Source: Candidatus Dojkabacteria bacterium UBA2022 (GTDB lineage: Bacteria; Patescibacteriota; Dojkabacteria; SC72). Taken from it: 64,000 nt of DNA. The DNA lies in contig DDBW01000006.1 of the NCBI GenBank assembly GCA_002335495.1, positions 72-64,071 of the forward strand, given 5' to 3'. The notes under the pieces were generated by a model. The model was not told where the DNA came from. It worked only from the letters and a program-made list of their open reading frames with translations, and ran no database searches. A program made the position numbers and the translations under genes. This document shows, in pieces, positions 746 through 63,729 of this stretch. Every line of letters begins with the position of its first letter. Positions within the stretch are counted from its first letter, which is position 1.

Positions 746-1084
746 CTTGAGAATGAGGAAATCCTGGCTTTATACCAGCACGCTAAAGCTCTGCTCTTTT
801 GTGGTATTGAGGATTTTGGATTAGTTCCCGTTGAGGCCATGGCTACCGGTACTCCAGTACTTGCTTTAAAGGCAGGGGGGCTTTTGGAAACGGTTGAAGA
901 GGGTAAGTCTGGGTTCTTTTTTGAGACCATTGATGAACTTTCTGGAATTATTCAAGACGAGAGGGTGCGAAAGATTAATCCTAAATGGTGTATAATGAGA
1001 GCACGAAACTTTACTCAGCAGAAATTTAAGAAACAGATATATAGTTACATAGAAAAGGTTTATGAAGAAGAAAAACGGTATTAA
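746..1084 (+). pseudogene. GT4 glycosyltransferase, C-terminal ~110 aa only (N-terminal catalytic half missing at the compositional junction)
   Basis: Low-GC part of ORF 371..1084 reads ENEEILALYQHAKALLFCGIEDFGLVPVEAMATGTPVLALKAGGLLETVEEGKSGFFFE, the EX7E/GT-B C-terminal motif region. The upstream 125 aa are nonsense read from the antisense of the high-GC gene. Confidence 0.55.
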
Positions 1085-50580: not shown

Positions 50581-50657
50581 GGGCGATTAGCTCAGCTGGT
50601 TAGAGCACCTCGTTTACACCGAGGGGGTCATAGGTTCGAATCCTATATCGCCCACCA
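50581..50657 (+). tRNA. tRNA-Val (anticodon TAC), CCA encoded
   Basis: GGGCGAT acceptor; anticodon stem CCTCG/CGAGG, loop TTTACAC; T-arm ATAGG-TTCGAAT-CCTAT. Confidence 0.9.
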
Positions 50658-52439
50658 TTTATCCTCGTCTACCCCGAAGCTCCGTTCAAGATCGTTCATA
50701 ATCTCGCTTGGTAATCTAAGTCTTATGTTCAATTTGTATGGAATCATTTGTCCTTTTTTCTGCCTTCCTGCAATGATATCCTTTTTTGTCACAGGTCTTG
50801 AAAAGACAATTATGTCATGAATAATCAATTGCAAGATATCTCTTAATTGTTCTCTGTCTTTGTACAAGTTTTCTAGCTCCTCTAGATACTTCTTTTTGAA
50901 GAGCTCAAATACTTTGTTATATCCTTCATCTATCGTCAGATCTGCCAATCTAGATTCAAGTTCATCATAATCAGCTTTATTCTTTTTATATAGTTTATCT
51001 TCTTCATCCATTTGCTCTGTAAATTGGTTGTCAGATAGATGCCCATTTTTATGTTGAAACTTTATGCTATCTATAGTTCTGCTGTGACTATTTATTAGCC
51101 TTTTAAGAACCGATAATCTCTTATTTAACATCTCTTTTTCAAGTCTGCGAGATTCTAACTTTAGTTGATGGTTATATACATCTCTCGGATTTCGTATAAG
51201 CTTTTTTAGGAAATCAACAACATACTCCTCAATGCCGTAAGCTGGAAGAGGAAGGCAACTACAGTGGATAGAACTATGCTTGGGACTTTTCCTTTTACAT
51301 TTGTAATAGTAAGAATACTTTCCAGTCCCTTTATTAACTAGCTTTCTTTCTCCCACCCAGTTATGTGGTTGCATGTCAATTTCAGGATTGTAACAATTTG
51401 CACATCTTAATAATCCCCTTAGTAAATAAATACTATCACTATGCATTCCTTGATCTCTACGAGTTATTTCGTCTTTGAGTAACTTCTCCTGTACAGCTAC
51501 AAAAGTCGGTTTATCAATAATTGCATCATGTATGTGTTCGGATAGTACCCTTTCTTTATCCTTACCCTTCTTCTTTGAGTACCAATACTCACCCATATAT
51601 ATCTTGTTTCTCAGAATATGCTTAATGACATTTGAGTCCCAAAAGTATGGTTTATTAACTTTTCTTCTTTTCCCTCTATATTTCTCATGCATCTCAGCAG
51701 AAACACTTGGAGACGGAACTTTATGTTGCATTAACCAATCAGCGATAGCCTGTCTACTTGAGTTTTCCCATAAATACATGTTAAAGATTTGTCTAATATA
51801 GTTAGCTTCCTCTTCTAGTATTACTAACTTTTTATCTAGGTCCTTCTTGTATCCATAAGGAGCATGTGACCCCATAAATACACCTTCTTTAGATGCAGAG
51901 GCTTTACCTGTATGAGTTCTTTCCATGATATTTTCAAGCTCAAGTTCTGCGATGACTCCTATAATCCCTAAAACTGCCTTTCCGAAAGGGTTAGTGGTAT
52001 CAATACTCTCATTTGCAGAAATAAACTCAATGTCTTTCTCGTCAAAATAATCAATTATTTCAAGAAGAACTTTTAACCTACGAGCAAATCTGTCAATTTT
52101 GTAGACAGCAACAACATCAAACGGTTTTTGTAAACCTTCTGTATTATCTATATCCGAAATCATTCTCCTGAAAGCAACTCTCTCATCCATAGGTAGAGTT
52201 CCACTCGCACCCTCATCTATATAGATATATTGGTCGTCTATTACATTTCCCTTCTCATCCATCCCTCCGGCATAGACATATCTATCCTTTCCTTCAATAG
52301 TTTTCCCTTTAGCCTTTATAAGATTTAGAAGTGTCTCTTTTTGCATCGGAATGCCGAACTTTTCTACTTGTTCATCGGTTGAAACCCTTATATACAAGGC
52401 AACTCTTTTAACATTTTCTTGGTCAAATCTGTTTTGCAT
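50643..52439 (-). CDS. Large serine recombinase (resolvase-recombinase-zinc-ribbon-coiled-coil integrase)
   Basis: ALYIRVSTDEQ catalytic Ser region; recombinase domain; Cys-cluster zinc ribbon (CANCYN...CKRK...HCSC); last 5 codons (KWWAI*) are antisense to the tRNA-Val acceptor/CCA. Confidence 0.85.
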   Translation of the reverse strand: MQNRFDQENVKRVALYIRVSTDEQVEKFGIPMQKETLLNLIKAKGKTIEGKDRYVYAGGMDEKGNVIDDQYIYIDEGASGTLPMDERVAFRRMISDIDNTEGLQKPFDVVAVYKIDRFARRLKVLLEIIDYFDEKDIEFISANESIDTTNPFGKAVLGIIGVIAELELENIMERTHTGKASASKEGVFMGSHAPYGYKKDLDKKLVILEEEANYIRQIFNMYLWENSSRQAIADWLMQHKVPSPSVSAEMHEKYRGKRRKVNKPYFWDSNVIKHILRNKIYMGEYWYSKKKGKDKERVLSEHIHDAIIDKPTFVAVQEKLLKDEITRRDQGMHSDSIYLLRGLLRCANCYNPEIDMQPHNWVGERKLVNKGTGKYSYYYKCKRKSPKHSSIHCSCLPLPAYGIEEYVVDFLKKLIRNPRDVYNHQLKLESRRLEKEMLNKRLSVLKRLINSHSRTIDSIKFQHKNGHLSDNQFTEQMDEEDKLYKKNKADYDELESRLADLTIDEGYNKVFELFKKKYLEELENLYKDREQLRDILQLIIHDIIVFSRPVTKKDIIAGRQKKGQMIPYKLNIRLRLPSEIMNDLERSFGVDEDKWWAI

Positions 52440-52475
52440 CTTTAATACAATGACTTCTCCCCGAAGTATATATAA

Positions 52476-52868
52476 TTATTTCTTTCCTCTGGTTTTCATC
52501 AATAGGGTATGAAGTAGTCTTTTATCATTTTCTTCAATTGAAGTTACAACTACCTCCATCTCCAATACTTTATTGTTACTTTCTACTTTGAGCTTTTTAT
52601 TTACCTTTTTGTAAAGTAACTTCCCATTGGAATCAGTAGCCTTTGCATTATCAACATAGTCAGGAAGTACTCCAAACATACTTTCCTTGCCCTTCCAATC
52701 CGATGATTCTATCCAATGTGTAAGATCCATTTCTTTTTGGGAAGTAATTTCAATATAGATATACTCTCCATTATTGTCTTTAATTGCCTTCATTGGATAT
52801 TGGGAGTTTTTTGGGGGAGAATCGTGTACTTTTGAGAAAAGTTGTTTTATTTCGCTTCTTGTTTTCAT
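52476..52868 (-). CDS. Hypothetical protein
   Basis: ORF only. Confidence 0.3.
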   Translation of the reverse strand: MKTRSEIKQLFSKVHDSPPKNSQYPMKAIKDNNGEYIYIEITSQKEMDLTHWIESSDWKGKESMFGVLPDYVDNAKATDSNGKLLYKKVNKKLKVESNNKVLEMEVVVTSIEENDKRLLHTLLMKTRGKK

Positions 52869-52990
52869 GAATATATATTACTTGACGGAGTGTCAACATG
52901 CAATGCACCACGAAGTCCATTATCTGCTGGAGGTTGGTGATACAACATAATTATATATTCAGTTTCCGGGTAACTATGGTATATTTACAT

Positions 52991-53593
52991 ATGGCTACTG
53001 CCCGTCAAATAAAAGCTATAGAAAAATTATCAGATTTTATCAGAAACACAAAAGGTACAAAGATTCCTTTCAAAACACTTGGAGAAATACTCCGAGAAGC
53101 AGGTTACTCTGATAGTGTTTCTAAATCCCCTCAAAGGGTAACTGAGAGAAAGGGATGGAATGAGTTAATGAGTGAATACTTTCCGGAGAAAGATTTAATT
53201 GACTTGCACAAACGAATATTAAATAAGTCTGAGTCGTTCAGGTATAAAGATAAAGTCGTTAAAACAAATCAGCCACATTCGGATGCAAAATATGCCTTAG
53301 ATATGTACTACAAATTGAAAGGAGCATACAAGTACGATCCTGAAAAAGTTGCTTATCAAAAACCACATCCTGGCTTTGAGTTTTTCCAAACGGATATAGC
53401 ATGTGAGTTCTGGTTGCATAACAGATATTTCAGAAACTTTCTAAAAGCTAAAGAATTGAATGTTCCAATGACACATCCTGATGCAGGAAGAGACCTGGAT
53501 CATATAGTGATTAGAGGATATGCAGAGGATTACTCTTACGAAGATGTTGTTCAAATGTTCATTGAGAAATATGAAAGAGGTGAAAGGGATTGA
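52991..53593 (+). CDS. Hypothetical protein with N-terminal HTH-like segment (terminase-small-subunit-like?)
   Basis: Internal ATG (MATARQIKAIEKL...GEILREAGYSDSVSKSPQRV) of ORF 52898..53593; weak resemblance only. Confidence 0.3.
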   Translation: MATARQIKAIEKLSDFIRNTKGTKIPFKTLGEILREAGYSDSVSKSPQRVTERKGWNELMSEYFPEKDLIDLHKRILNKSESFRYKDKVVKTNQPHSDAKYALDMYYKLKGAYKYDPEKVAYQKPHPGFEFFQTDIACEFWLHNRYFRNFLKAKELNVPMTHPDAGRDLDHIVIRGYAEDYSYEDVVQMFIEKYERGERD

Positions 53594-53598
53594 AAATC

Positions 53599-54243
53599 TT
53601 AGGGTTTTAGAAATAGATCAGCAAGAACATATGTTCTACTAAATGACTTTTGCCCTTCTTTCGTTTTTAAGACAATCTCAACATCAATCTCAGGAGTTTC
53701 TTCGCTATAAACTTTAGTGTCATATATTTTTCTATCCGATTCCTCCCTAAGTGCCAAAGTTGAAAATACTCTAATCCATTTTTCAAAATGTTCAGAAGTA
53801 TTAGCATTAACTTTAACCGGTAGGTTCAGTCTATTACTCGCACTGCCTTTTATTTTCCCGTACCAATCCAACTTCCTACCATTGATAATAATTCTTTCAA
53901 TGTATATATCGTAATCACTGTAATTATGAATATAGTAGGGAATCTTATACTCAGTTTCGTTTGTTCGTGAGTATGATACAAAACTTGTTCCTTTCCTTAT
54001 CTGTTCGTATTCAACTTCAATATCAAATATTTTATATCGCAAATAAACTTTGTATGTGGAGTAAAATAGAAAAATAAAAGCAGAAAACAGGAGGATTAGG
54101 TTACTGTATTTTTGGACTAACAATGAGTACACAGAAGCACTCATCCCACTAAAAAGTATTACATACTGAATCCAATCAACCCCGTCCTTCCAAAATATCA
54201 AAACTTCGGAGAGATATTTCAAAAACTTTTGATAATTCTTCAT
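53599..54243 (-). CDS. Hypothetical 2-TM membrane protein
   Basis: ORF; two N-terminal hydrophobic helices. Confidence 0.4.
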   Translation of the reverse strand: MKNYQKFLKYLSEVLIFWKDGVDWIQYVILFSGMSASVYSLLVQKYSNLILLFSAFIFLFYSTYKVYLRYKIFDIEVEYEQIRKGTSFVSYSRTNETEYKIPYYIHNYSDYDIYIERIIINGRKLDWYGKIKGSASNRLNLPVKVNANTSEHFEKWIRVFSTLALREESDRKIYDTKVYSEETPEIDVEIVLKTKEGQKSFSRTYVLADLFLKP

Positions 54244-54279
54244 CTGTTGGATTGTACTCTAAAAGGTCTTTTAGAACAA

Positions 54280-54495
54280 TTATAATCCTTCGGTCAGTTT
54301 ACTGACTGTAATTCCAATAGCCTTTGCAATACTGTAGACAACTGATAGGGAGGGACTAACCGTTCCTCTTTCAATTCTACCTATATAATTACTACTCACA
54401 TTTGCCTTAAATGCTAACTTCTCTTGTGTTAATCCTGCCTTAGTTCTTGCTTTTCTAAGTAAAGCACCAAACTTTTTCTCTATTTGATTTGCCAT
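54280..54495 (-). CDS. XRE-family HTH transcriptional regulator (71 aa; candidate island repressor)
   Basis: LRKARTKAGLTQEKLAFKANVSSNYIGRIERG helix-turn-helix. Confidence 0.75.
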   Translation of the reverse strand: MANQIEKKFGALLRKARTKAGLTQEKLAFKANVSSNYIGRIERGTVSPSLSVVYSIAKAIGITVSKLTEGL

Positions 54496-54584
54496 ATCTA
54501 AAGATTATGCAATCACAGCCCTATAGACAACGAGCTATCTACACGGTACAATCTGCATGGCTAAGTTAAATAAATGCAGTTAAG

Positions 54585-54827
54585 ATGGATATATTTCTAA
54601 CAATTCTCAAGTGGGTTATTGGATTGATAATTCCGTTAATAGTTAGATATTTAGTCATTAAAAAATCTGTTACAAAATGGGTTGCAATTGGGATACTTGT
54701 TGTAAATTGGTTCATTTGTGCCTTCCTTTACTTTTCACTCCTTGAATCCATGGATGTTATGGCTGATGTTGGAGTACCAATTTTTGTGATTATTTCATTT
54801 GCAGGGTATTCAATTCTTACCAATTAA
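54585..54827 (+). CDS. Small 2-TM membrane protein
   Basis: ORF, divergent from the XRE gene. Confidence 0.35.
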   Translation: MDIFLTILKWVIGLIIPLIVRYLVIKKSVTKWVAIGILVVNWFICAFLYFSLLESMDVMADVGVPIFVIISFAGYSILTN

Positions 54828-54830
54828 AGT

Positions 54831-55394
54831 ATGAAATGGTTTTGGGTTATATTAACAACTATCTTGCTATCAATCCTTTCCGGAGCATTCTACTGGTTTG
54901 CATATAGACCATATGAGATCAAAAGGGATTGTTCGGTCGTAAGCGAAATTAGTAAAGAAATAAGGGAAATTACAACTCAAGATGTACACGAAAGTATCAG
55001 ATTGAATAATCTTTGTAATCAATTCACTGAAAGATATGCAAAAACTTACTACAATTGTTTACAGGAAAAGAAGAAAAACTATATTAAGACAAGTACAGAA
55101 GATTCAGAATTATGGAAATCGTGCGATGAAATAGAAAAAGTATGCAGGAAGGAATTAAATAAAGAAACAAGCAACAAATACGACTTCCTATTCAGTAGAT
55201 TGACTCAACCTACATGTGAACGAGAAGATCAGACAAAAAAGAATCGTTTCTACGATTACTACTACGAAAACGGGATTTACTGTAACGAAAGCTTCCCTGT
55301 ACTTAAAGAAAGAGATGGCGAACAAGAAAAGACCCTAAAAAGAGATGCAACTAACGAAGAGTATCAAAAGTGCCTTAGAAACAATGGACTATAG
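54831..55394 (+). CDS. Hypothetical protein with N-terminal TM
   Basis: ORF; Cys- and charge-rich. Confidence 0.35.
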   Translation: MKWFWVILTTILLSILSGAFYWFAYRPYEIKRDCSVVSEISKEIREITTQDVHESIRLNNLCNQFTERYAKTYYNCLQEKKKNYIKTSTEDSELWKSCDEIEKVCRKELNKETSNKYDFLFSRLTQPTCEREDQTKKNRFYDYYYENGIYCNESFPVLKERDGEQEKTLKRDATNEEYQKCLRNNGL

Positions 55395-55439
55395 GGATAT
55401 TTAGGTATAAAATCGTTAATAAACTTTTATCAAATTACT

Positions 55440-56423
55440 GTGGCAGTAACAAAGTGTCCAAAATGCGATCATTCACTTGAAGTAGATACACCCGGTAAGT
55501 ATAAATGCCCTGAATGTAAAAGCCTTTTTACATACGAAGGGAAAGACATTCCTAGAAAAGCAGAGAAAATCTCTGACAAGAAATCCTCAAATGTAGGATG
55601 TGGGACAATAATTATTATCTTTCTCGCATTAGGTGTTATTGGAGCATTTATTTCTGCTGTACAAGAAGCCCTTACTCCTGCAAGTTTTACCCTGAATGGA
55701 AGGGATGAGAGAGTCGCATCTACACCTACAACTACATTAACTTTTGAATGTGTAAAGATTGATTCTGTTAAAATAAACGATACTCTTTTGAGAGAAAGTG
55801 AGAAAGAGGGTTTATGCGATACAGGTTATGAAATATCCTTGAAGGACGGTAAAAACGAATATAAGGTACAGGCACTTGGAGATGATAAAACCTTTCAGGA
55901 AACCGTAACAATTTCATTTGATAAAAAGGCTTACGATAAAGCACAGGCAGAAATCGCTAAAAAGAAGAAAGAAGCAGAGGCGAAAAAGAAAGCGGAAGAG
56001 GAAGCTAAACTAAATGCACTTGCAAAAGATTATTGCTCACAAAGAAAAAGCGATATTAGAAAGTATCCAACACTAAAAATTGATGGCTCAAGCTATATTA
56101 TGGAGTTTAATACCGCAAAACAAGGGAGATACTTAACCCAGACAGACTGCAAAAATAGAATAACTCAATTGCTCAAGTTAGCTGAAAAGGATGGGACTGT
56201 TATTTCAGATAGTAGAATGAAAGACATAATCCAGAAGAAACATTGGATTGGAATGAGGGACTATCAATTTGTTATCTCGGTAGGTAATCCTGACGACATT
56301 AACAGTTCCAACTATGGTTCGTACAAGAGTGACCAGTATGTATACCACAAAGATTCATATGGAATAAGTGCATATTATGTCTATTTTGATGATGGAAAAC
56401 TTTCAAGTACTCAAGACTTTTGA
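55440..56423 (+). CDS. Membrane protein: N-terminal zinc ribbon, TM helix, extracytoplasmic coiled-coil and unknown C-terminal domain
   Basis: CPKCDHSLEVDTPGKYKCPECKSLF; TM GCGTIIIIFLALGVIGAFISAV; KKKEAEAKKKAEEEAK coiled-coil. Confidence 0.5.
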   Translation: MAVTKCPKCDHSLEVDTPGKYKCPECKSLFTYEGKDIPRKAEKISDKKSSNVGCGTIIIIFLALGVIGAFISAVQEALTPASFTLNGRDERVASTPTTTLTFECVKIDSVKINDTLLRESEKEGLCDTGYEISLKDGKNEYKVQALGDDKTFQETVTISFDKKAYDKAQAEIAKKKKEAEAKKKAEEEAKLNALAKDYCSQRKSDIRKYPTLKIDGSSYIMEFNTAKQGRYLTQTDCKNRITQLLKLAEKDGTVISDSRMKDIIQKKHWIGMRDYQFVISVGNPDDINSSNYGSYKSDQYVYHKDSYGISAYYVYFDDGKLSSTQDF

Positions 56424-57841
56424 TGAATATGAAAAGGATCTCTTGTCCACAATGTAATCAGACTCTTAATATAGAAAAAGAAGGTGTATATAAATGTCCC
56501 GACTGCCAAAGTACCTTTGAATATACAAAAAAGAAAGTAAATCTCTTGGAAAAGGGAAACGGTAAAACATTATCTACTCAGGTAGTTACTTACTCATTAT
56601 GGGTACTTTCCTTATTAGGAATACTCTTTTCCTTTGTGGTTTTAGCTACAAGTTTATTTGGAGGGTTTTTAGTACTACTTTCAGCTATTCTTATCATGCC
56701 TCCTATAAGGAATCTATATTCACAGAGATTGAAGGTCAGATACCTACATGCACTAATCATTTCGTTTATCTTTTTTATAGTTGGTTTGGGATACATGATG
56801 AATGTATATGTAAATAGTGATGAATATAAGCAGTCAGTTGCACAACAAGAGTCGGACAAGAAACTAGAATCAGAAAGACAAAAGAGATTAGAAGCAGAGA
56901 GAATAGCAAATGAAGAAAAGAAAGAGCGAGAAAAGGCAGAAGAACTTGCAAAAAAAGAAAAAGAGGAACGAGAGAAGTTGGAGAGGCTTATTGCAGAAGC
57001 ACAAGCAATAAATGAAGACTATCCAGAAGAAAAGGATGGAGTAAAGACAGATGTAAAGGGTACACAAGATGCAAATATAAGGTTAATTAATGAAACTGAA
57101 ACAATTTCAGATAAAGAAACAAACGAAGAGAAAACACTAACAAAGCTACTTGATGTTATTGAAGTGGTAGATGGTGACACAATAAAAGTCTCCGAACTTG
57201 GTACATTAAGACTTATTGGCATTGATACTCCAGAAACAGTAGATCCTAGAAAACCAGTACAATGCTTTGGGAAAGAAGCATCAGATAAAGCAAAATCTTT
57301 GTTGAGTGGTAAAAAGGTTAGATTGGAGTTTGATACCTCACAAGGAAGACTTGATAAATACGGAAGGACACTTGCTTATGTATACCGTGAAGATGGATTA
57401 TTTTTCAATAAAGAGATGATTAAGCAGGGCTTTGCACATGAATACACATATTCAACCCCATACAAGTACCAAAGTGAGTTTAAGAAGGCTCAGAGCGAAG
57501 CACAGGAAGCTAAGAGTGGGCTGTGGGGTAGTGCATGTAAGTGTGAGAAGGGAGAGGAAGTATCCAAGAGTTGTACCGCATGTAACCAATTGACAGTAAA
57601 GAAATACAATTGGGATTGCAGTACATATACAGAGAAAGTTTCAAGTAGCTCATGTTCTTACAAATGTTCAACTACAACTCCGGTAGCACCTAAACCATCT
57701 TCTCCATATACATGTAATTGTAGTAAAACTTGCTCACAAATAACTAGCTGTGCCGAAGCTCAATATCAATTAAAGACCTGTGGTTGTTCTGCTAGAGATG
57801 GAGATGATGATGGAATAGCTTGTGACTCTATGTGTCAGTAA
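56420..57841 (+). CDS. Membrane-anchored nuclease: zinc ribbon, 2 TM, coiled-coil, staphylococcal-nuclease (SNase/thermonuclease) domain, C-terminal Excalibur Ca-binding domain
   Basis: CPQCNQ...CPDCQSTF; LIGIDTPETVDPRKPVQCFGKEASDKAK...LDKYGRTLAYVY SNase motifs; C-terminal CAEAQYQLKTCGCSARDGDDDGIACDSMCQ Excalibur-like; start overlaps the previous gene by 4 nt. Confidence 0.7.
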   Translation: MMNMKRISCPQCNQTLNIEKEGVYKCPDCQSTFEYTKKKVNLLEKGNGKTLSTQVVTYSLWVLSLLGILFSFVVLATSLFGGFLVLLSAILIMPPIRNLYSQRLKVRYLHALIISFIFFIVGLGYMMNVYVNSDEYKQSVAQQESDKKLESERQKRLEAERIANEEKKEREKAEELAKKEKEEREKLERLIAEAQAINEDYPEEKDGVKTDVKGTQDANIRLINETETISDKETNEEKTLTKLLDVIEVVDGDTIKVSELGTLRLIGIDTPETVDPRKPVQCFGKEASDKAKSLLSGKKVRLEFDTSQGRLDKYGRTLAYVYREDGLFFNKEMIKQGFAHEYTYSTPYKYQSEFKKAQSEAQEAKSGLWGSACKCEKGEEVSKSCTACNQLTVKKYNWDCSTYTEKVSSSSCSYKCSTTTPVAPKPSSPYTCNCSKTCSQITSCAEAQYQLKTCGCSARDGDDDGIACDSMCQ

Positions 57842-57901
57842 GTAGTTGATACATTGTTATGAGGTAATTGCTTTAAAGCTCAAAATAAATATAATGAATG
57901 T

Positions 57902-59044
57902 ATGGAAACCCCTTTGGTGAACCCAATAGTCTTAAAATGGGCGAGAGAGAAGAACGGCTTCACAATACAGCAAGCCTCAAAGAAATGTGGTGTTACTGAA
58001 AGTACCTATCTTTCTTGGGAAGAAGGGAAGGTTGAGATTCCAATAAGGAAACTGCCTGTTTTTGCGAAAGTCTTCAAATATACATCTGCAATTTTTTTGT
58101 TGGATGTTATACCAGAAGAGAAGTATCCGATTGAGTTTAGAAACTTCTTTATTACATACGGAAATATAGGTAGAGAACTCAATTTAGCCATTAGATCTGC
58201 ACAATATGTACAATCAATCTTGAAAGAGTTGTCTGAATACTCTGACAACAAGTTCGTGAAAAGAATATCCGAGTTGGGAGAAAAGTCTAAGAAATTTGAA
58301 GAAATTTCCACGATCCTTGAAGAATATCTAAATCTTAATTACTCTCTTCTTCACGGGCAAAGGGATCAATTCAAGGTTTTCAAGAGGTGGAAGGAATATG
58401 TTGAATCTCAGGGAATCTCCGTTATGGAGAGAGGATTTCCACAGAATGAGGCGAGGGGCTTCTTGTTATACGATGAAATAGCCCCGGTTATTGTATTGAA
58501 TACAAAAGATTCTATTCATTCAAAAATATTCTCGTTAATACATGAGCTTGCACATGTCGTCTATAGACAATCAAGCATTGATAATGAAATAACCCTGACA
58601 GAAAACAAAAAAGGTGAAATTGAAACATTGTGTAATCAAATTGCAAGTGAAATTCTTGTTCCCCCAACTATACTTGAAGAAAGAATTATCTCTGTTCAGT
58701 CCTCTCCTTTAGAGGTAGTTATTTCGGACTTGAGCAAATATTTTTGTGTTAGTAGGGAAGTTATTGCTTATAAATTATTAGATTTGAAATACTATACAAG
58801 GTCAGTAATTGAACAATATATAGAAGAAGTAAGGCAGGAATCATTGCTATTCAAATCTAAGAAGAATAATGGAGGAGACTACTACAAAAATGTGATAGTT
58901 AACAATAGCCCATTGTATTTATTTACTGTTTTTGATGGGCTAAACAATAATAAAATCACTTTTGGTGAAGTGGTGTCAATTCTTAAAGTGAAATCAGAAA
59001 ATATAACCAAATTGGAAAGAGTTCTCCTAGACTACTATGAATAA
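57902..59044 (+). CDS. XRE-HTH fused to ImmA/IrrE-family (COG2856) zinc metallopeptidase domain
   Basis: N-terminal HTH (WAREKNGFTIQQASKKCGVTESTYLSWEEG); HEXXH motif SLIHELAHVVY. Confidence 0.7.
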   Translation: METPLVNPIVLKWAREKNGFTIQQASKKCGVTESTYLSWEEGKVEIPIRKLPVFAKVFKYTSAIFLLDVIPEEKYPIEFRNFFITYGNIGRELNLAIRSAQYVQSILKELSEYSDNKFVKRISELGEKSKKFEEISTILEEYLNLNYSLLHGQRDQFKVFKRWKEYVESQGISVMERGFPQNEARGFLLYDEIAPVIVLNTKDSIHSKIFSLIHELAHVVYRQSSIDNEITLTENKKGEIETLCNQIASEILVPPTILEERIISVQSSPLEVVISDLSKYFCVSREVIAYKLLDLKYYTRSVIEQYIEEVRQESLLFKSKKNNGGDYYKNVIVNNSPLYLFTVFDGLNNNKITFGEVVSILKVKSENITKLERVLLDYYE

Positions 59045-59501
59045 ATATTTACTTGATACAAATGCCTATATAGAAATTGATAGAGGTGCATCGGTTGATA
59101 TGTTTCCTACTACACTGTGGGCTAGTATTGGAGATTCAATAAAGAAGGGAGAGATTTTATTACTTAAGGCCGTATATAACGAAGTTACAAAGTCTAGTGA
59201 TGGATTAAGTAGCTGGATGAAAGGTTATTCAGATTTCATATACGATCACCTCGCGGATATTGATTTAATAGCAAGAGCAAAGATAATTGTAAATAAATAT
59301 CCAACAATAGTTGATCCCAAAAATATCAATGATCAAGCAGATCCATATATAATTGCTTGTGCTTATGAAAAGTCACTATGTATTGTAACGAATGAGGGTA
59401 GAAAGCATAGTAAGATAAATATCCCGTATATCTGTGATGAGTACAATATTAATTGTATTCAGTCATATGAGTTTATGAGAAACACTGGATGGAAGTTCTA
59501 G
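59037..59501 (+). CDS. DUF4411/PIN-like domain protein (predicted nuclease partner of the ImmA/IrrE-HTH gene)
   Basis: YLLDTNAYIEI N-terminal Asp motif; further acidic positions (QADPYIIACA, VTNEG); 8-nt overlap with the upstream gene. Confidence 0.5.
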   Translation: MNKYLLDTNAYIEIDRGASVDMFPTTLWASIGDSIKKGEILLLKAVYNEVTKSSDGLSSWMKGYSDFIYDHLADIDLIARAKIIVNKYPTIVDPKNINDQADPYIIACAYEKSLCIVTNEGRKHSKINIPYICDEYNINCIQSYEFMRNTGWKF

Positions 59502-59706
59502 CCAACCATAATTGTTACTTATAGTAAGTAAAAGAACCGCATTACTGGGCTTTTTTTGGGGCAAGTAAACAAATTGTTTAACATCTCACGAGTCATATAT
59601 ATTATTTTTATCCTGCTTTGGGGTTCTTGCTTTTTGGGGAAATTGATATTCGCCCTTATTTCTCATAGTCTTAAGCCATCTTTTCCCTTCGCGACAATAC
59701 AATTTA

Positions 59707-59735
59707 TTGTAAATCATAACCATATGCCCTATAAT
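59707..59735 (+). promoter_or_regulatory. Sigma70-like promoter (TTGTAA-17-TATAAT) for the graspetide precursor
   Basis: Perfect -10, good -35, 17-nt spacer, followed ~30 nt later by the AAAGGAGGTGAGG SD. Confidence 0.5.
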
Positions 59736-59767
59736 ATTCTATCTCAACCCGAAAGGAGGTGAGGTTA

Positions 59768-59863
59768 ATGTTTGCAGTGAACTTTTTCACTCGGATTGAG
59801 TCCGCTGATGCCAAAGGAACCGGCACAGTAGACAAATCCACAGGTCAGACTGACTTTGACTAG
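59768..59863 (+). CDS. Graspetide (omega-ester RiPP, microviridin-like) precursor peptide, 31 aa
   Basis: ATG 7 nt after a strong SD; MFAVNFFTRIESADAKGTGTVDKSTGQTDFD; leader FAVNFFTRI resembles the PFFARFL leader motif; Thr/Ser + Asp/Lys-rich C-terminal core; below the 60-aa ORF-track cutoff. Confidence 0.55.
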   Translation: MFAVNFFTRIESADAKGTGTVDKSTGQTDFD

Positions 59864-59885
59864 TCGTCAACCTGCAAGCAAGAAA

Positions 59886-59941
59886 GGAGATGTAGAGAAT
59901 CAATACCGTCATCAATATGACAACCCTTTCTCTACATCTCC
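59886..59941 (+). terminator. Perfect 14-bp stem hairpin between precursor and ligase (attenuator or partial terminator)
   Basis: GGAGATGTAGAGAA-N28-TTCTCTACATCTCC followed by CCAGCTCTTTC. Confidence 0.4.
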
Positions 59942-59972
59942 CCAGCTCTTTCAAATCGTTTAAGGAGACACC

Positions 59973-60908
59973 ATGCACACAGTACTAGTAATAACATCGT
60001 TGCCTGACCCCCATGTGGAAATGGTCAAGGAGCATCTTTCTGCGGATGTAGAAATGGTGATTTTTGATCCAAAGGCTCTCGGTATTTCTGGAAGTTTTAC
60101 TATTTCAGAATCAGGAGAGCTGCTTTCACTTGGTGGACAGAGTCCTGTCTCAGTCTGGTACAGAAAGCCGAAGTATTTATCAGAGTCAGAGATAGAAAAA
60201 CTTAGAGTCCCGAAAGATTATCTTCCTGCAATTGCTTCATTGCATGAAGAAGGGTTCTCACTAATCCAAGAAGCATACCCAGATAGTCTGTGGGTATCTA
60301 AACCAGCTGCAATCAAGAGAGCTTCCAACAAGCTTCTGCAATTCTTGACGGCAAAGAAGATTGGTTTCGCAATTCCGGAAACAATCTTTTCAACAGATCC
60401 AAAAGCAATTGATGAGTTACGAAGTAAGGTGGGAGACATTGTGATGAAACCATTGGGGAGACCATTTGCAAATGTAAATGGAGTACCGTCGTGGTTTTTC
60501 GCAACAGTCATCCCTGCAAGCCAGACCATGAATTATGAGGGTCTTGGATTAACACCCATGATCTTTCAGCAATTAATTCATAAGGCTTATGATTTGAGGG
60601 TAACAGTTATCGGTAACAAAGTCTTTGGATGTAAGATAGTTTCAGAGAAAATTGATTGGCGAGTAGCTCAATCAGAACCTGAGACATTGTATACTCCACT
60701 TGACCTTGATAAGGAAACTACCGAAAAATGTTTACTCATGAATCAACAGCTTGGTCTGAACTTTGGAGCCTACGACTTCGCATACTCCAATGAAGGAGAA
60801 CTTGTTTTTCTTGAGATAAATCCAAACGGACAGTGGGGATTTGTTGAGAATAAAACAGGATTACCTTTATCAAAGGCAATGGCGGAGGTGCTTATTGGTT
60901 CTTCTTAG
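59973..60908 (+). CDS. ATP-grasp RiPP maturase (graspetide/microviridin-type ligase, MdnC/MvdD-like)
   Basis: Pre-ATP-grasp N-domain (MHTVLVITSLPD), WYRKP, and FLEINPNGQWGFVENKTGLPLSKAMAEVL C-terminal motif characteristic of this ligase family; GC higher than surroundings. Confidence 0.75.
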   Translation: MHTVLVITSLPDPHVEMVKEHLSADVEMVIFDPKALGISGSFTISESGELLSLGGQSPVSVWYRKPKYLSESEIEKLRVPKDYLPAIASLHEEGFSLIQEAYPDSLWVSKPAAIKRASNKLLQFLTAKKIGFAIPETIFSTDPKAIDELRSKVGDIVMKPLGRPFANVNGVPSWFFATVIPASQTMNYEGLGLTPMIFQQLIHKAYDLRVTVIGNKVFGCKIVSEKIDWRVAQSEPETLYTPLDLDKETTEKCLLMNQQLGLNFGAYDFAYSNEGELVFLEINPNGQWGFVENKTGLPLSKAMAEVLIGSS

Positions 60909-60944
60909 ATGTGCTGGAGGGTAGTTTTTTGGTAGAATACACCA

Positions 60945-61505
60945 ATGAAACAAAGCTACCCTCCAGTTACAACTAAAAGAGTGGATGTAAAGAAAATTGC
61001 TAAAAGATTAATCATGATGGCAAAGCGAGATCAAGAAGTAAGAGATAAATACTTTGCTCTGAATGATAAAAAGTATCTGGACGAAATGTGGAAGATTGAT
61101 GAAAAGAATCAAAGGGAGTTTAAGGAAATCTTTAGGCAAGTAGGTTTAATCACCTCAGAGTATGGATCAGAAGCACAAATGTCTGCTTTCTTGATCGTTC
61201 AACACATGTCTAGAGAAGAAGTGAAGTTTATGAAAAACTACCTTTCTCTAATGAAAAAGAATATTACAGGTTATCCACTCAATATTTATGCAATGTTAGT
61301 TGACAGAGTTAGAAATTGGGAAGGTAAAGACCAGTTATACGGGACTCAGTTTATGCCTGTAGAAGGGAAAGAAAACACCTACAAACTTAAAAAGCTATAC
61401 AAGTCTCATTTGGTAGAAAAGAGAAGAATGGAGTTAGGTTTAGAGCCTCTAGGAGAGTACATTAAGAAACTTCAGGAAGAGAGGGGAGTTACTTTAATAC
61501 TTTAG
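60945..61505 (+). CDS. Hypothetical protein
   Basis: ORF; start codon lies in the loop of an 11-bp stem (60914..60966). Confidence 0.35.
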   Translation: MKQSYPPVTTKRVDVKKIAKRLIMMAKRDQEVRDKYFALNDKKYLDEMWKIDEKNQREFKEIFRQVGLITSEYGSEAQMSAFLIVQHMSREEVKFMKNYLSLMKKNITGYPLNIYAMLVDRVRNWEGKDQLYGTQFMPVEGKENTYKLKKLYKSHLVEKRRMELGLEPLGEYIKKLQEERGVTLIL

Positions 61506-61617
61506 TACCTTCTAATTGCTTTATCTAGATCATGTATAATCAATACCAACCTTCTTTCTTGGGCTTCTGGGTGGTACAATATCTCTGACCATTTTCCCAT
61601 TATGATATGATATTAAT

Positions 61618-62043
61618 ATGACGCAAGAAATTGAAGAAGAAATAAAGGCACATATTGCATTAGGAATCATTTTGAATGAGAAAGGTGAAGTCCTTATTAT
61701 TCAGAGAATCAAGGAAGAAAAGGGGGCAGGTGAAGTTACCCTCAATTGGGCGTTTCCAGGTGGGAAAATTGAAGAAGGTGAAGATAGCGTAAGTACTTCT
61801 ATAAGGGAAGTATTGGAAGAGACAGGGTATTCAGTAAGCATTAGTAATGAAATTTCAGGAAGAAAACATCCTCAATTTCCAGTATATGTTCATTACATGG
61901 CAGGTGTTTTACTCTCATCTACCCAGCTTGATTACGACCAGTCTGAAATAAAAGAGGTTAAGTGGGTTAAACCTGAACAATTGAAAGATTACTTCTCAAC
62001 CGACTTTGACGAGAAGGTACAAGACAGCCTAGGGATTCACTAA
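61618..62043 (+). CDS. NUDIX hydrolase
   Basis: GGKIEEGEDSVSTSIREVLEETGY Nudix box. Confidence 0.7.
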   Translation: MTQEIEEEIKAHIALGIILNEKGEVLIIQRIKEEKGAGEVTLNWAFPGGKIEEGEDSVSTSIREVLEETGYSVSISNEISGRKHPQFPVYVHYMAGVLLSSTQLDYDQSEIKEVKWVKPEQLKDYFSTDFDEKVQDSLGIH

Positions 62044-62087
62044 TGATTTCAAATTGATTGCTAATTAGAAAGATATACTATCAATGA

Positions 62088-62153
62088 GTAGTTAGTTTTA
62101 AGTTCCATGCTTTGAAGTGTCGCCCACCATTTTTCGTTCTCTACCCATAAATG
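62088..62153. repeat. att-like direct repeat A (degenerate tRNA-Val 3' end, gttttaagttccaTgct...gtcgcccaccattttt)
   Basis: 12-13 nt identical to the tRNA-Val terminus plus flank similarity; partner copy at 63148..63210. Confidence 0.45.
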
Positions 62154-62169
62154 ATTCTGTATTGTAATA

Positions 62170-63147
62170 TTGGATGAAATGTCAGAATCTTTAATTGAAA
62201 ACCGGCCACAAATACCTCAATCACTTGGTGAAACAGATTTGCGAAATTATTTATCTCAAAGGGATATTGTCCTTAGCGATGAGGAGTTGGAACACTGTAG
62301 ACTGATTGAAGTACCAGATGGGGTACCTATACTAATCATTGATCGTGAACACGATGAGTGGGAAGGCGGTGATGACCCGCTCCTGGCAAAATGTTTAGGC
62401 AGTCCTTCCTGCAAAGAATTTATCCCAGAATATTTTCTTCCCGACCTCAAAAGGGATGAGGATAAATACCCAGATTTTGTTAAAAAGCTTATGGGGTTCA
62501 GCGCTGATGATACAAACGCTGCATATGAGAAGAGGGGGGGATTCTTCTATTATCATGCACAAAAGTTTATGGGAGTGGAAGGAAAGAAAGTTTCTGTTGT
62601 TGATATTGCAAACACTGGCTTGTATGAAGCATATTTCAGCCTCTGGCCAGCAGTGTATTCGTTAACAGGCAGTGCATTACCACTTCCCCCAACACTTAAA
62701 ATCATCACAGTATTAGCGCCGTGGGTAATGCGGGCAATTAACTACATTGGTGATGGTCAAAAAGTAGGGGATCAAAAGACAAATGAAAACGGACGCGGTA
62801 TATATGACAAACGCCATATAAATAGCTATGAAAAAGCCATTTACGACATGGAAGATGCAAGACGAGTATATGCAGCAAGGGCGCTAGAGAAATTAAGTAA
62901 TGACAGGAAAAAACAATATCCAAATAATGATCAACTATTAGTGGCTGTATATCCTAAGGCGCATGCAATGAGAATAGCCAACTATTTAACCAATTTAAAT
63001 CCATCTACGGCAATTTCCACACAAGTCAAGAATCTCTTATACCGATACCCAGGCTTGGAATTTTCAACAAGAACATATGAGAAAAAGAAAAGCTATGGTA
63101 GCAAACCAGAGGGTTATTGGGATTTAGTTGAAAACGTTAAATTCTAA
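62170..63147 (+). CDS. Hypothetical protein (325 aa) in a cassette flanked by the A/B repeats
   Basis: ORF only. Confidence 0.4.
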   Translation: MDEMSESLIENRPQIPQSLGETDLRNYLSQRDIVLSDEELEHCRLIEVPDGVPILIIDREHDEWEGGDDPLLAKCLGSPSCKEFIPEYFLPDLKRDEDKYPDFVKKLMGFSADDTNAAYEKRGGFFYYHAQKFMGVEGKKVSVVDIANTGLYEAYFSLWPAVYSLTGSALPLPPTLKIITVLAPWVMRAINYIGDGQKVGDQKTNENGRGIYDKRHINSYEKAIYDMEDARRVYAARALEKLSNDRKKQYPNNDQLLVAVYPKAHAMRIANYLTNLNPSTAISTQVKNLLYRYPGLEFSTRTYEKKKSYGSKPEGYWDLVENVKF

Positions 63148-63210
63148 GAATCAAAATAACACCAGTTTTAAGTTCCAGGCTACTTTGTACTGCCCACCAT
63201 TTTTTAGAAA
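63148..63210. repeat. att-like direct repeat B (gttttaagttccaGgct...ctgcccaccatttttt)
   Basis: About 45-nt similarity to repeat A. Confidence 0.4.
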
Positions 63211-63222
63211 TTACCTTAACAA

Positions 63223-63729
63223 ATGGGAACTGGATTATCCTTAATTACTGAATATGCACTCGGAGGACTTATTTTCTGGTCTACATTAGTCGTAGGATTC
63301 TTCCTTTCGAGTATCTTTCCTGCTGAACTACTTACTAACTTATCACCTATCTTAACCGGGTTAGTCCTAATTGGATCTCCTTTCGTGTATTTAACCGGAC
63401 TTTTAATTGATATATTGGGGAATGAAGTTCTTCAATTGATTAAAATCGAAAGAAATCTGGGCTCAGATAACTACAATAAAATAGTTGTAAATGGCTCAAA
63501 TTCAGCTAAAGACAGAGTAAGGGGATTTGAGTCAACAAAAAGGTTTCTGCGGATTTCGTTTATATCCTTTTTGATTAATGTAGTTATATTTTTGATCACC
63601 GGATGTATTACAAATCAGCCGTTACTCTTCTGCTTTACAATAATCGCTTTATTTATTGGAATTCTTTCTTTCACAGGCTATTTAATGATAAAGCAAAAGT
63701 ATGAAGCAGTTTTGGAGCAATTGAGTTAA
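63223..63729 (+). CDS. Hypothetical polytopic membrane protein
   Basis: ORF with 4-5 hydrophobic helices. Confidence 0.4.
   Translation: MGTGLSLITEYALGGLIFWSTLVVGFFLSSIFPAELLTNLSPILTGLVLIGSPFVYLTGLLIDILGNEVLQLIKIERNLGSDNYNKIVVNGSNSAKDRVRGFESTKRFLRISFISFLINVVIFLITGCITNQPLLFCFTIIALFIGILSFTGYLMIKQKYEAVLEQLS

What the first reader, a model, noticed from the sequence alone, without database searches (positions are those of the whole stretch)
55440..57841. Operon of two paralogous zinc-ribbon/TM/coiled-coil membrane proteins, the second ending in an SNase-Excalibur nuclease
Seen: two adjacent, 4-nt-overlapping genes share an N-terminal CxxC-N13-CxxC ribbon, TM helices and a K/E-rich coiled-coil. 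The second adds a staphylococcal-nuclease-type domain (LIGIDTPE..., RLDKYGRTLAYVY) and a Cys-rich C-terminus with the DGDDDGIAC Excalibur signature. Established: SNase/thermonuclease domains are Ca-dependent DNA/RNA nucleases, and Excalibur is an extracellular Ca-binding module. Inference: a cell-surface-tethered nuclease with a cytoplasmic zinc-ribbon tail plus a nuclease-less paralog (sensor or partner). It sits in an integrated element between an XRE repressor and an HTH-ImmA/DUF4411 pair. It could be a membrane-spanning defence or DNA-scavenging module rather than a simple secreted nuclease. I do not recognise this two-gene architecture as a described system.
Basis: partly seen in the sequence, partly recalled or inferred. 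Interest (0 to 1): 0.6.

Follow-up and report, generated by a model that had tools for sequence, protein, structure and literature searches.

The report
Surface nuclease beside unrelated surface protein
The second gene encodes an ordinary kind of membrane-anchored, outward-facing DNA/RNA-cutting enzyme in a tiny 'candidate phyla' bacterium; the gene in front of it only shares the same membrane anchor and is not its conserved partner, so this is not a new two-gene system.

Summary
Both genes exist as described, in a Candidatus Dojkabacteria genome, on an ~11.5 kb element integrated at tRNA-Val.

**Gene B (56420/56429-57841)**
- It has a CxxC-N13-CxxC ribbon, three TM helices and a 62-residue charged helix.
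- These are followed by an intact SNase domain (all Ca-binding and catalytic residues kept), a Cys-rich module and a borderline Excalibur domain.
- Predicted topology puts the nuclease outside the cell.
- Its core (membrane anchor, SNase, Excalibur) matches B. subtilis prophage nuclease YokF and resembles S. aureus Nuc2.
- Thousands of membrane-anchored SNase homologues exist, many from Patescibacteria.

**Gene A (55440-56423)**
- It resembles B only over the first ~71 residues (ribbon plus first TM).
- The rest is an Ig-like domain, a charged helix and an uncharacterised non-enzymatic head.
- This head family has about 160 cluster representatives.

**The pair is not conserved**
- None of 13 informative loci with A-like genes has an SNase gene nearby.
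- None of 4 loci with ribbon-SNase genes has an A-like head.
- The ribbon, TM anchor, Ig domain and helix recombine freely with different heads.
- A-like genes recur on tRNA-integrated serine-recombinase elements.

Verdict: an anchor variant of a known surface nuclease, adjacent to an independent surface protein. Low interest.

The parts
55440..56423 (+). Gene A: 327-aa membrane-anchored surface protein (GTG start)
   Evidence: ORF. Identical protein P0121 is in the public collection. AF2 model has mean pLDDT 89.6.
55455..55526 (+). A zinc ribbon, CxxC-N13-CxxC (res 6-29), cytoplasmic
   Evidence: Cys positions. Beta-hairpins in the model. Similar to the B, P0002, P0005 and P0124/5 ribbons. 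Matches phrog_6586.
55602..55670 (+). A single TM helix (res 55-77)
   Evidence: Hydropathy 2.72. Helix 55-77 in the model. K-rich segment upstream.
55683..55919 (+). A Ig/FN3-like beta-sandwich (res 82-160), extracellular
   Evidence: Model strands. Foldseek hits to Ig/FnIII-like modules. The same domain occurs in SNase-headed P0007/P0023/P0030 and in many proteins with other heads.
55923..56042 (+). A K/E-rich long helix (res 162-201)
   Evidence: Model helix. 50% charged, 12% large hydrophobic residues.
56061..56417 (+). A C-terminal alpha/beta head ending ...YQDF/TQDF (res 208-326); uncharacterised family, last ~85 aa BLIP/lipoprotein-like fold
   Evidence: 160 representatives at E<=1e-3. 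Conserved C199 and C237. No Pfam hit in 29 members. Foldseek hits: 3d4e and phage lipoprotein-like proteins.
56420..57841 (+). Gene B: 473-aa ORF (most likely 470 aa from ATG 56429); membrane-anchored thermonuclease
   Evidence: ORF. P0001 is named 'thermonuclease family protein [Candidatus Dojkabacteria bacterium]'. AF2 pLDDT 87.1.
56444..56515 (+). B zinc ribbon, CxxC-N13-CxxC (res 9-32), cytoplasmic
56570..56812 (+). B three-TM anchor (res 51-131) with ILMPPIR / positively charged inside loop
   Evidence: Helices 51-77, 79-103 and 107-131. Loop 97-110 has +4/0 charge. The same anchor occurs in A-headed P0124/5/7, P0174 and other proteins.
56819..57004 (+). B 62-residue E/K/R-rich helix (res 134-195), stalk
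   Evidence: 60% charged, 18 i/i+4 opposite-charge pairs.
57146..57532 (+). B SNase (thermonuclease) domain (res 243-371)
   Evidence: Pfam PF00565 E 3.7e-28. PDB 1sye alignment. D251/D253, R264, D269, T270, E272, K313, Y314 and R316 are conserved.
57536..57667 (+). B Cys-rich small beta module (res 373-416)
   Evidence: Cys list. Strands 380-408. Conserved in homologues.
57713..57835 (+). B Excalibur-like Ca-binding module (res 432-472), D460-x-D-x-D-G-x-x-C-D
   Evidence: Pfam PF05901 20.5 bits, against a cut-off of 22. Homologues pass the cut-off. Matches phrog_5854.
50581..50657 (+). tRNA-Val, integration target (attL side)
50643..52439 (-). Large serine recombinase of the element; its stop codon lies inside the tRNA 3' end
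   Evidence: Resolvase, Recombinase and Zn_ribbon_recom domains.
62094..62134 (+). attR: degenerate copy of the tRNA-Val 3' half, containing the 13-nt repeat TCGCCCACCATTT (62120-62132)
57902..59501 (+). HTH-ImmA (Peptidase_M78) plus DUF4411 (PIN-like): a separate toxin-antitoxin-type module, not part of A/B
   Evidence: PMC5499597.

Best explanation
A and B are two independent, modular surface proteins that are cargo of a tRNA-Val-integrated serine-recombinase element in a Candidatus Dojkabacteria (Patescibacteria/CPR) genome.

**B.** B is a YokF/Nuc2-like surface nuclease. A cytoplasmic zinc ribbon and three TM helices hold it in the membrane. A ~9 nm charged single helix projects the catalytic part away from the membrane. 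That part is a Ca2+-dependent SNase domain, stapled by disulfides and followed by a Cys-rich module and an Excalibur-type Ca-binding module. There it cuts extracellular DNA/RNA.

The likeliest physiological role is to make nucleotides and oligonucleotides available to a bacterium that, like other CPR organisms, cannot make nucleotides de novo. This role is inferred, not shown.

**A.** A is non-enzymatic. It has the same kind of ribbon, one TM helix, an Ig-like domain, a charged helix and a protein-binding-type head. Its family is typically carried by such integrative elements.

**Why they resemble each other.** The A/B resemblance comes from shuffling a shared N-terminal anchor module among Patescibacteria surface proteins. 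It does not come from a functional pairing.

**Shown and inferred.** Shown: gene structure, domain content, catalytic residues, lack of co-occurrence, modularity and the element context. Inferred: topology, Ca dependence, the stalk function and the physiological role.
For: **B is an intact SNase**
- Pfam, NCBIfam NucI-like and 284 PDB SNase sequences matched.
- The equivalents of S. aureus D21, R35, D40, T41, E43, K84, Y85 and R87 are present. They are invariant or nearly invariant in 30 homologues.

**Outside topology**
- Positive-inside charge distribution and three TM helices.
- 15 Cys after the SNase domain.
- Homologous SNase domains sit behind lipoprotein or signal-anchor N-termini.

**Known architecture**
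- SPbeta YokF is lipoprotein signal peptide + SNase + Excalibur, with 41% identity to B over the SNase domain.
- YokF is membrane-localised (bioRxiv 10.1101/2025.10.26.684598).
- S. aureus Nuc2 is described in its paper's title as a surface-attached extracellular nuclease (PMC3994088; title seen, paper not read).

**Abundance**
- 3174 homologues at E<=1e-3 among the candidates scored; many of the named ones are from Patescibacteria. Only 6 of the top 120 carry the ribbon.

**No pairing**
-.

**Modularity**
- B's 3-TM anchor occurs in A-headed proteins.
- A's Ig domain occurs in SNase-headed proteins.
- The ribbon occurs in both.
- A's ribbon is closer to the ribbon of P0002 (44-47%) than to that of its neighbour B (30%).

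**A has no enzyme fold**
-.

**A-like genes sit next to XRE genes and large serine recombinases abutting tRNAs in other Patescibacteria**
-.
Against: - The genes are tightly packed (5-nt gap or 1-4-nt overlap) and probably co-transcribed. A strain-specific functional link therefore cannot be excluded.
- No multimer prediction could be run.
- Nucleotide scavenging is inferred from general CPR biology, not from this locus. Location on a mobile element fits an exclusion or barrier role at least as well.
- The co-occurrence sample is small (13 + 4 loci) and some flanks are short.
- Excalibur is below Pfam's cut-off in B itself.
Confidence: 0.7

Rival explanations
1. The element-encoded surface nuclease B is a DNA-entry or DNA-exit barrier that serves the mobile element. 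It would degrade incoming or outgoing foreign DNA at the cell surface: competing elements, plasmids or transforming DNA. This is analogous to prophage SPbeta YokF, which blocks nanotube-mediated plasmid exchange and is held in check by its C-terminal Excalibur-type ('TNM') domain.
For: - B lies on an integrated element.
- The ribbon-SNase homologue P0008 also lies 1.5 kb from a large serine recombinase abutting tRNA-Lys.
- P0002 is followed by MazG-like, Schlafen-type helicase and NucS_C/MrcB_N genes, a defence-island flavour.
- YokF has the same anchor-SNase-Excalibur core. It is reported to act this way, with the C-terminal domain auto-inhibitory (bioRxiv 10.1101/2025.10.26.684598).
- Cultivated Saccharibacteria, which are Patescibacteria, take up DNA by a ComEC-dependent route (PMC10633639).
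Against: - Other close homologues sit among housekeeping genes: trigger factor, ClpP and dUTPase in L005.
- Most of the thousands of homologues have no shown element context.
- YokF's mechanism depends on FlhA and nanotubes, which were not looked for here.
- PADLOC gives only a domain-level hit.
- The YokF work is a preprint.
Confidence: 0.2
2. One reading: A and B form a dedicated two-component membrane module. Their cytoplasmic ribbons and charged helices would heterodimerise, with A acting as sensor, regulator or inhibitor of the nuclease.
For: - The genes are adjacent and probably translationally coupled.
- They share a ribbon and first TM helix.
- A's head has a BLIP-like, protein-binding-type fold that could in principle bind an enzyme.
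- The pair is retained in a second metagenome sample of the same strain (L012).
Against: - There is no co-occurrence in any other locus of either family.
- A's family associates with XRE and serine-recombinase elements irrespective of SNase.
- The helices lie at non-equivalent positions and lack a clear heptad pattern.
- A's ribbon is more similar to that of a distant SNase protein than to B's.
Confidence: 0.08

Closest known systems
YokF of Bacillus subtilis prophage SPbeta (membrane-localised thermonuclease with C-terminal Excalibur/'TNM' domain)
   Same: - Membrane anchor, then SNase, a linker and an Excalibur domain at the C-terminus.
- 41% identity over the SNase domain, E 1e-29.
- Encoded on an integrated mobile element.
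- The catalytic domain is exported.
   Different: - YokF uses a lipoprotein signal peptide. B uses a cytoplasmic zinc ribbon plus three TM helices and a 62-residue charged helix.
- B has an extra Cys-rich beta module, and its Excalibur is Cys-rich and scores below Pfam's cut-off.
- B comes from a different phylum.
- YokF's partner, FlhA/nanotubes, was not examined here.
Staphylococcus aureus Nuc2 (surface-attached thermonuclease; PMC3994088) and NucI-type thermonucleases
   Same: - SNase catalytic domain. NCBIfam NucI E 3.8e-40, below the equivalog cut-off.
- Tethered to the outside of the cytoplasmic membrane.
   Different: - By my recollection (the paper was not read here), Nuc2 has a single N-terminal signal anchor.
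- By the same recollection, Nuc2 has no ribbon, no long stalk and no Excalibur domain.
- NucI equivalog membership is not met (137 bits against a cut-off of 250).
Membrane-anchored SNase +/- Excalibur proteins, many from Patescibacteria (annotated 'thermonuclease family protein' or 'endonuclease YncB')
   Same: B's own family: more than 3000 hits, with SNase domains 40-60% identical and N-terminal TM anchors.
   Different: Only a small sub-clade (P0001, 2, 3, 5, 8, 15 among the top 120) has the N-terminal zinc ribbon. Others have Ig-like domains or plain anchors.
Small phage/prophage lipoproteins and BLIP-like (DUF3862-type) domains, e.g. PDB 3d4e and Salinibacter phage M1EM-1 lipoprotein
   Same: The last ~85 residues of A superpose on these small alpha/beta protein-binding folds: Foldseek E 1e-6 to 1e-2. 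They are exported and often element-encoded.
   Different: Only weak structural similarity, and no Pfam or sequence-level membership. A has an additional conserved N-terminal half of the head (YC..RK...DCR), an Ig domain and a ribbon anchor.

Membership tests
SNase / thermonuclease (PF00565) | Profile match above the curated cut-off | tested here: met
   98.5 bits against a cut-off of 21, E 3.7e-28, res 262-369. PDB staphylococcal nuclease E 2.6e-23.
SNase / thermonuclease (PF00565) | Ca2+ ligands (S. aureus D21, D40, T41) and catalytic residues (R35, E43, R87; also K84, Y85) | tested here: met
   B has D253, D269, T270, R264, E272, R316, K313 and Y314 aligned to the S. aureus residues. They are invariant or at least 90% conserved in 30 homologues.
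SNase / thermonuclease (PF00565) | Ca2+-dependent nuclease activity | not testable with these tools
   Needs an enzyme assay of res ~225-473 with and without Ca2+/EGTA.
Excalibur Ca-binding domain (PF05901) | Profile match above the curated cut-off | tested here: inconclusive
   B scores 20.5 bits against a cut-off of 22. Homologues P0008 (25.6) and P0009 (28.1) pass it. B's C-terminus is 52% identical to that of P0008.
Excalibur Ca-binding domain (PF05901) | DxDxDGxxCE loop | tested here: met
   B has D460-G-D462-D-D464-G465-I-A-C468-D469, with E replaced by D. D464 and C468 are invariant; D460 and G465 are at least 90% conserved.
YokF-type plasmid-exchange-blocking nucleases (bioRxiv 10.1101/2025.10.26.684598) | Three parts: membrane-targeting N-terminus, TNase domain, C-terminal TNM (= Excalibur) domain | tested here: met
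   B has a TM anchor, SNase and an Excalibur-like module. YokF's TNM 256-296 is Pfam Excalibur 260-295. The anchor type differs.
YokF-type plasmid-exchange-blocking nucleases (bioRxiv 10.1101/2025.10.26.684598) | Blocks DNA transfer; interacts with FlhA; auto-inhibition by the C-terminal domain | not testable with these tools
   Functional assays only.
Conserved two-gene system (A+B) / anti-phage defence system | The two genes co-occur in other genomes | tested here: not met
   0 of 13 informative A-like loci have an SNase gene, and 0 of 4 distinct ribbon-SNase loci have an A-like head. The only repeat, L012, is the same strain.
Conserved two-gene system (A+B) / anti-phage defence system | Match to a known defence-system model | tested here: not met
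   PADLOC gives nothing for A. B hits only the SNase part of 'SNc+LTD'.
Paralogy of A and B | Significant similarity along the proteins | tested here: not met
   Only res 1-71 are similar (E 2e-9). All other segments have E>0.06. The domain order differs.
Zinc ribbon | Two CxxC knuckles on beta-hairpins, conserved in relatives | tested here: met
   CxxC-N13-CxxC is present in A, B, P0002, 3, 5, 8, 15 and P0124, 125, 174. Beta-hairpins appear in both models. Metal binding was not tested.
Coiled coil | Heptad pattern of hydrophobic a/d positions | tested here: inconclusive
   The best register gives 44-55% hydrophobic a/d positions even counting Ala. The helices are 50-60% charged with many i/i+4 opposite-charge pairs. 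This is more like an ER/K single alpha-helix. No oligomer prediction was possible.
HTH-ImmA(DUF955)/DUF4411 three-component TA-type module (neighbour, not part of A/B) | Fused HTH-Peptidase_M78 gene followed by a DUF4411 PIN-like gene | tested here: met
   Pfam hits. spr1629-type antitoxin and RmrA models. The arrangement is described in PMC5499597.

The most novel reading that the evidence does not exclude
Patescibacteria carry a family of small tRNA-targeting serine-recombinase elements. These elements display cargo proteins on the cell surface through a shared, exchangeable 'zinc ribbon + TM anchor + charged stalk' scaffold. On this reading the YokF-like nuclease B, and perhaps the YQDF-head protein A, act as element-encoded surface exclusion factors. 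They would control which foreign DNA, or which competing elements or phages, can enter these naturally DNA-scavenging cells. The cytoplasmic ribbon might couple the surface modules to an intracellular partner.
Probability: 0.15. Interest if true: 0.5.

Novelty: new member of a known kind. Interest (0 to 1): 0.22.

Why it matters
- As found, the result removes a false lead. The apparent new two-gene nuclease system is a chance adjacency of two mosaic surface proteins. The nuclease belongs to a well-populated, already annotated family.
- CPR bacteria depend on external nucleic acids, so their surface nucleases are physiologically important. This one shows an unusual anchor (cytoplasmic ribbon, three TM helices, ~9 nm helical stalk).
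- The recent YokF preprint suggests that element-encoded versions could police DNA traffic.
- The uncharacterised YQDF-head family recurs on tRNA-integrated serine-recombinase elements. It is a small lead into the poorly known mobile elements of Patescibacteria.

Tried and rejected
- **Word-indexed search for A.** It found only 2 proteins and made A look like an orphan. The exhaustive HMMER search found 160 representatives, so 'orphan' was rejected.
- **Repeat of the indexed search with an alignment.** It again returned only 2 hits, probably swamped by low-complexity K/E words.
- **The search for related loci with the full alignment A1.** A trimmed C-terminal alignment A2 worked but gave only 4 + 15 loci.
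- **Promoter and terminator scan.** Counts did not exceed shuffles, so it is uninformative about operon structure.
- **L012.** It looked like independent support for the pair, but it is the same strain and its end is chimeric.
- **att-like site in L007.** None was found.
- **Literature.** Searches for Patescibacteria + thermonuclease and for Excalibur + SNase + membrane gave nothing.
- **A as nuclease inhibitor (BLIP-like head).** Considered and kept only as part of the low-confidence rival, because there is no co-occurrence.
- **The element as a prophage.** Not supported: there are no structural-gene hits.
Full report
**What is at the coordinates**

Two same-strand ORFs are present: A at 55440-56423 (327 aa, GTG start) and B at 56420-57841 (473 aa from a TTG start).

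A's TGA stop is at 56421-56423. B could start at TTG 56420, ATG 56423 or ATG 56429. NCBI's identical protein P0001 is 470 aa, which corresponds to ATG 56429. The ribbon-bearing homologues all begin M-x-x-x-[K/S]-C-P. The likeliest arrangement is therefore a 5-nt gap rather than a 4-nt overlap. Either way the genes are tightly packed.

P0001 is named 'thermonuclease family protein [Candidatus Dojkabacteria bacterium]', which places the window in Patescibacteria (CPR).

**How alike are A and B?**

BLASTP finds one significant segment only: residues 1-71 of A against 4-73 of B, with 30% identity and E 2e-9. This segment is the CxxC-N13-CxxC ribbon plus the first TM helix (Cys positions).

Nothing else is similar. 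The AF2 models show different architectures:
- A (pLDDT 89.6): ribbon, one TM helix (55-77), an Ig-like sandwich (82-160), a 40-residue helix (162-201) and an alpha/beta head (208-326).
- B (pLDDT 87.1): ribbon, three TM helices (51-77, 79-103, 107-131), a 62-residue helix (134-195), SNase (about 227-370), a small Cys-rich beta module (380-408) and a C-terminal Excalibur-like module.

The K/E-rich helices are 50-60% charged with 12-15% large hydrophobic residues and no clear heptad pattern. I read them as ER/K-type single-helix stalks rather than demonstrated coiled coils. This is an inference.

**B is an intact, outward-facing SNase nuclease**

- Pfam SNase scores 98.5 bits, E 3.7e-28.
- NCBIfam NucI-type gives E 3.8e-40, below the equivalog cut-off.
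- 284 PDB staphylococcal-nuclease sequences match.

In the alignment to S. aureus nuclease, the Ca ligands and catalytic residues are all present. In B they are D253, R264, D269, T270, E272, K313, Y314 and R316, matching S. aureus D21, R35, D40, T41, E43, K84, Y85 and R87. They are invariant or at least 90% conserved in 30 homologues.

The C-terminal 40 residues match Pfam Excalibur at 20.5 bits, just under the cut-off of 22. They carry D460-x-D-x-D-G-x-x-C-D. Homologues P0008 and P0009 pass the cut-off.

Topology evidence:
- The N-terminus has 9 K/R.
- The 44-residue hydrophobic block forms a TM hairpin.
- The loop 97-110 has four K/R and no acidic residue, and a third TM helix follows. This gives N-in, C-out.
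- B has 15 Cys after the SNase domain.
- Homologues with more than 50% identical SNase domains sit behind lipoprotein-type or signal-anchor N-termini, for example P0025 and P0053.

**B's family and closest known relatives**

The search returned 3174 homologues at E<=1e-3 among the candidates scored. Most are TM-anchored SNase proteins with or without Excalibur, and many of the named ones come from Patescibacteria. Only six of the top 120 have the ribbon.

A tblastn search against phages hits yokF of SPbeta. YokF is lipoprotein signal peptide + SNase + Excalibur and is 41% identical to B over the SNase domain.

A 2025 preprint reports that YokF is membrane-localised and blocks nanotube-mediated plasmid exchange. 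It also reports that the C-terminal domain (256-296, which is Pfam Excalibur 260-295) is auto-inhibitory (bioRxiv 10.1101/2025.10.26.684598). S. aureus Nuc2 is described in the title of PMC3994088 as a surface-attached extracellular nuclease (title seen; I did not read the paper).

B is thus a new member of a known kind, with an unusual anchor.

**A is not an orphan and not an enzyme**

The indexed search found only two proteins. The exhaustive HMMER search found 160 representatives: 45 at E<=1e-10.

The conserved part is the C-terminal ~150 residues. It has two nearly invariant Cys (C199, C237) and the motifs KYWIGM, P-D-IN-T-x-YG and QWVYYKDSYGISAYYIY..GKVTSYQDF. No Pfam family covers it in any of 29 members.

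Foldseek gives only weak hits:
- Ig/FnIII-like modules for residues 82-160.
- A putative BLIP-like protein (3d4e) for the last ~60-85 residues.
- Small phage lipoprotein-like proteins, with a best E of 1e-6.

No catalytic fold was detected.

**The pair is not conserved**

I fetched 19 loci that encode A-like heads. Thirteen distinct loci have at least 1.1 kb downstream of the A-like gene. A tblastn search with B's SNase domain finds nothing in any of them. The exception is L012, which is 99.96% identical to the window over 2251 nt and then becomes chimeric.

Conversely, four distinct loci carry ribbon-bearing SNase homologues: P0002 at 66%, P0003 at 62%, P0005 at 50% and P0008 at 40% identity to B. 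None has an A-like head.

Their neighbours differ:
- P0002: Zur/CobW/ArsP_1-DUF1980 upstream; Trypsin_2, MazG-like and helicase genes downstream.
- P0005: trigger factor, ClpP and dUTPase nearby.
- P0008: small ORFs and a serine recombinase.

**Why they look alike: module shuffling**

- B's three-TM anchor (LW.LS..G...ILPPIR...LRY) occurs in A-headed proteins (P0124, P0125, P0127, P0174), in proteins with other heads, and in ribbon-less SNase proteins.
- A's Ig-like domain occurs in the SNase-headed proteins P0007, P0023 and P0030.
- The ribbon occurs in both head classes. It also occurs as 5-10 tandem copies in unrelated cytoplasmic proteins and in a phage family, phrog_6586.
- A's ribbon is closer to that of P0002 (44-47%) than to that of B (30%).

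**Genomic context**

A large serine recombinase (50643-52439, minus strand) ends inside the 3' end of tRNA-Val (50581-50657).

The 13-nt sequence TCGCCCACCATTT recurs at 62120. It is embedded in a degenerate copy of the tRNA 3' half. A second such copy lies at 63164-63204. This defines an ~11.5 kb integrated element plus a ~1 kb remnant.

Cargo of the element:
- an XRE gene;
- four consecutive membrane or surface-protein genes, including A and B;
- an HTH-ImmA/DUF4411 module, a previously predicted three-component TA type (PMC5499597);
- an ATP-grasp RiPP maturase, DUF6624 and a NUDIX gene.

No phage structural genes were detected.

A-like genes elsewhere show the same setting. A divergent XRE gene is present in four loci. 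A large serine recombinase lies within a few kb in six loci, and where a tRNA gene was found in the fetched sequence (L008, L018, L019) the recombinase gene ends inside or against it. The ribbon-SNase P0008 also lies on such an element.

**Mechanism**

Best-supported (confidence 0.7): B is a surface-displayed, Ca-dependent nuclease that acts on extracellular nucleic acids. A is an independent, element-associated surface protein.

The physiological role is inferred. One option is nucleotide scavenging, since CPR bacteria generally lack de novo nucleotide synthesis (my background knowledge). The other is a YokF-like barrier to DNA traffic that serves the element (rival, about 0.2). A dedicated A-B module is unlikely (about 0.08).

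**Verdict**

The 'novel two-gene system' interpretation is not supported. Interest is low. The side leads are the modular ribbon-anchor scaffold and the YQDF-head gene family on Patescibacteria integrative elements.

Noticed in passing
window 50581-63204: An ~11.5 kb integrated element lies at tRNA-Val. attR (62094-62134) and a second copy (63164-63204) are degenerate copies of the tRNA T-arm/acceptor 3' half. This implies two successive integrations, the second leaving only a ~1 kb remnant with ORF 62170-63147.
   Followed up: partly
window 50643-50657; L018 8481-10139; L019 9828-11369; L008 4842-6381; L004 7864-9406: There is a recurrent design in Patescibacteria: the 3' end of a large serine recombinase gene overlaps the 3' end of a tRNA gene (Val, Asn, Lys). 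These small elements usually carry an A-like 'YQDF-head' surface-protein gene, often just after a divergent XRE gene.
   Followed up: partly
window 59973-60908 (and 60945-62043): An ATP-grasp ribosomal-peptide maturase (TIGR04187/MvdC/MvdD-like, E 1e-54) is further cargo of the element. It is followed by DUF6624 and a NUDIX hydrolase. No precursor peptide was identified.
   Followed up: no
window 57902-59501: An HTH-Peptidase_M78 (ImmA/IrrE) gene overlaps a DUF4411 PIN-like gene by 8 nt. This is a predicted three-component toxin-antitoxin-type module. It matches PADLOC RmrA models and the NCBIfam spr1629 antitoxin family.
   Followed up: partly
window 54585-55394: Two further small membrane-protein ORFs lie directly upstream of A. 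One is 80 aa. The other is 187 aa with an N-terminal TM helix and a Cys-rich exterior. Neither has homologues in any library searched. Together with A and B they form a run of four surface or membrane genes downstream of the XRE switch region.
   Followed up: no
proteins P0190, P0162, P0180, P0223, P0240: The same CPxC-x13-CPxC ribbon unit occurs as 3-10 tandem copies in otherwise unrelated proteins. Examples are one with a TIR-like N-terminus (P0190) and a 2731-aa protein (P0162).
   Followed up: no
L001 1227-12234: The closest full-length homologue of B (P0002, 66% identity) sits between two gene groups. On one side is a Zur/CobW/ArsP_1-DUF1980 metal-homeostasis cluster. On the other is a run of defence-like genes (MazG-like, Schlafen-type helicase, NucS_C/MrcB_N).
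   Followed up: no
window 1-850: The first ~850 nt are 54-60% GC, against 35-39% for the rest of the window. They encode a partial GT4 glycosyltransferase. This is either a chimeric contig end or recently acquired DNA.
   Followed up: partly
L012 2252-2790: Public contig ERZ761609 NODE-21191 is identical to window 55719-57969 and then switches abruptly to high-GC sequence. It is probably an assembly chimera.
   Followed up: yes
L007 6169-6711 vs window 63223-63729: A 168-aa membrane protein lies just outside the element's right end. It has a 65%-identical homologue 4.3 kb downstream of the B homologue P0003 in another metagenome contig. This hints at partial synteny of the locus. No att-like sequence was found there.
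   Followed up: partly
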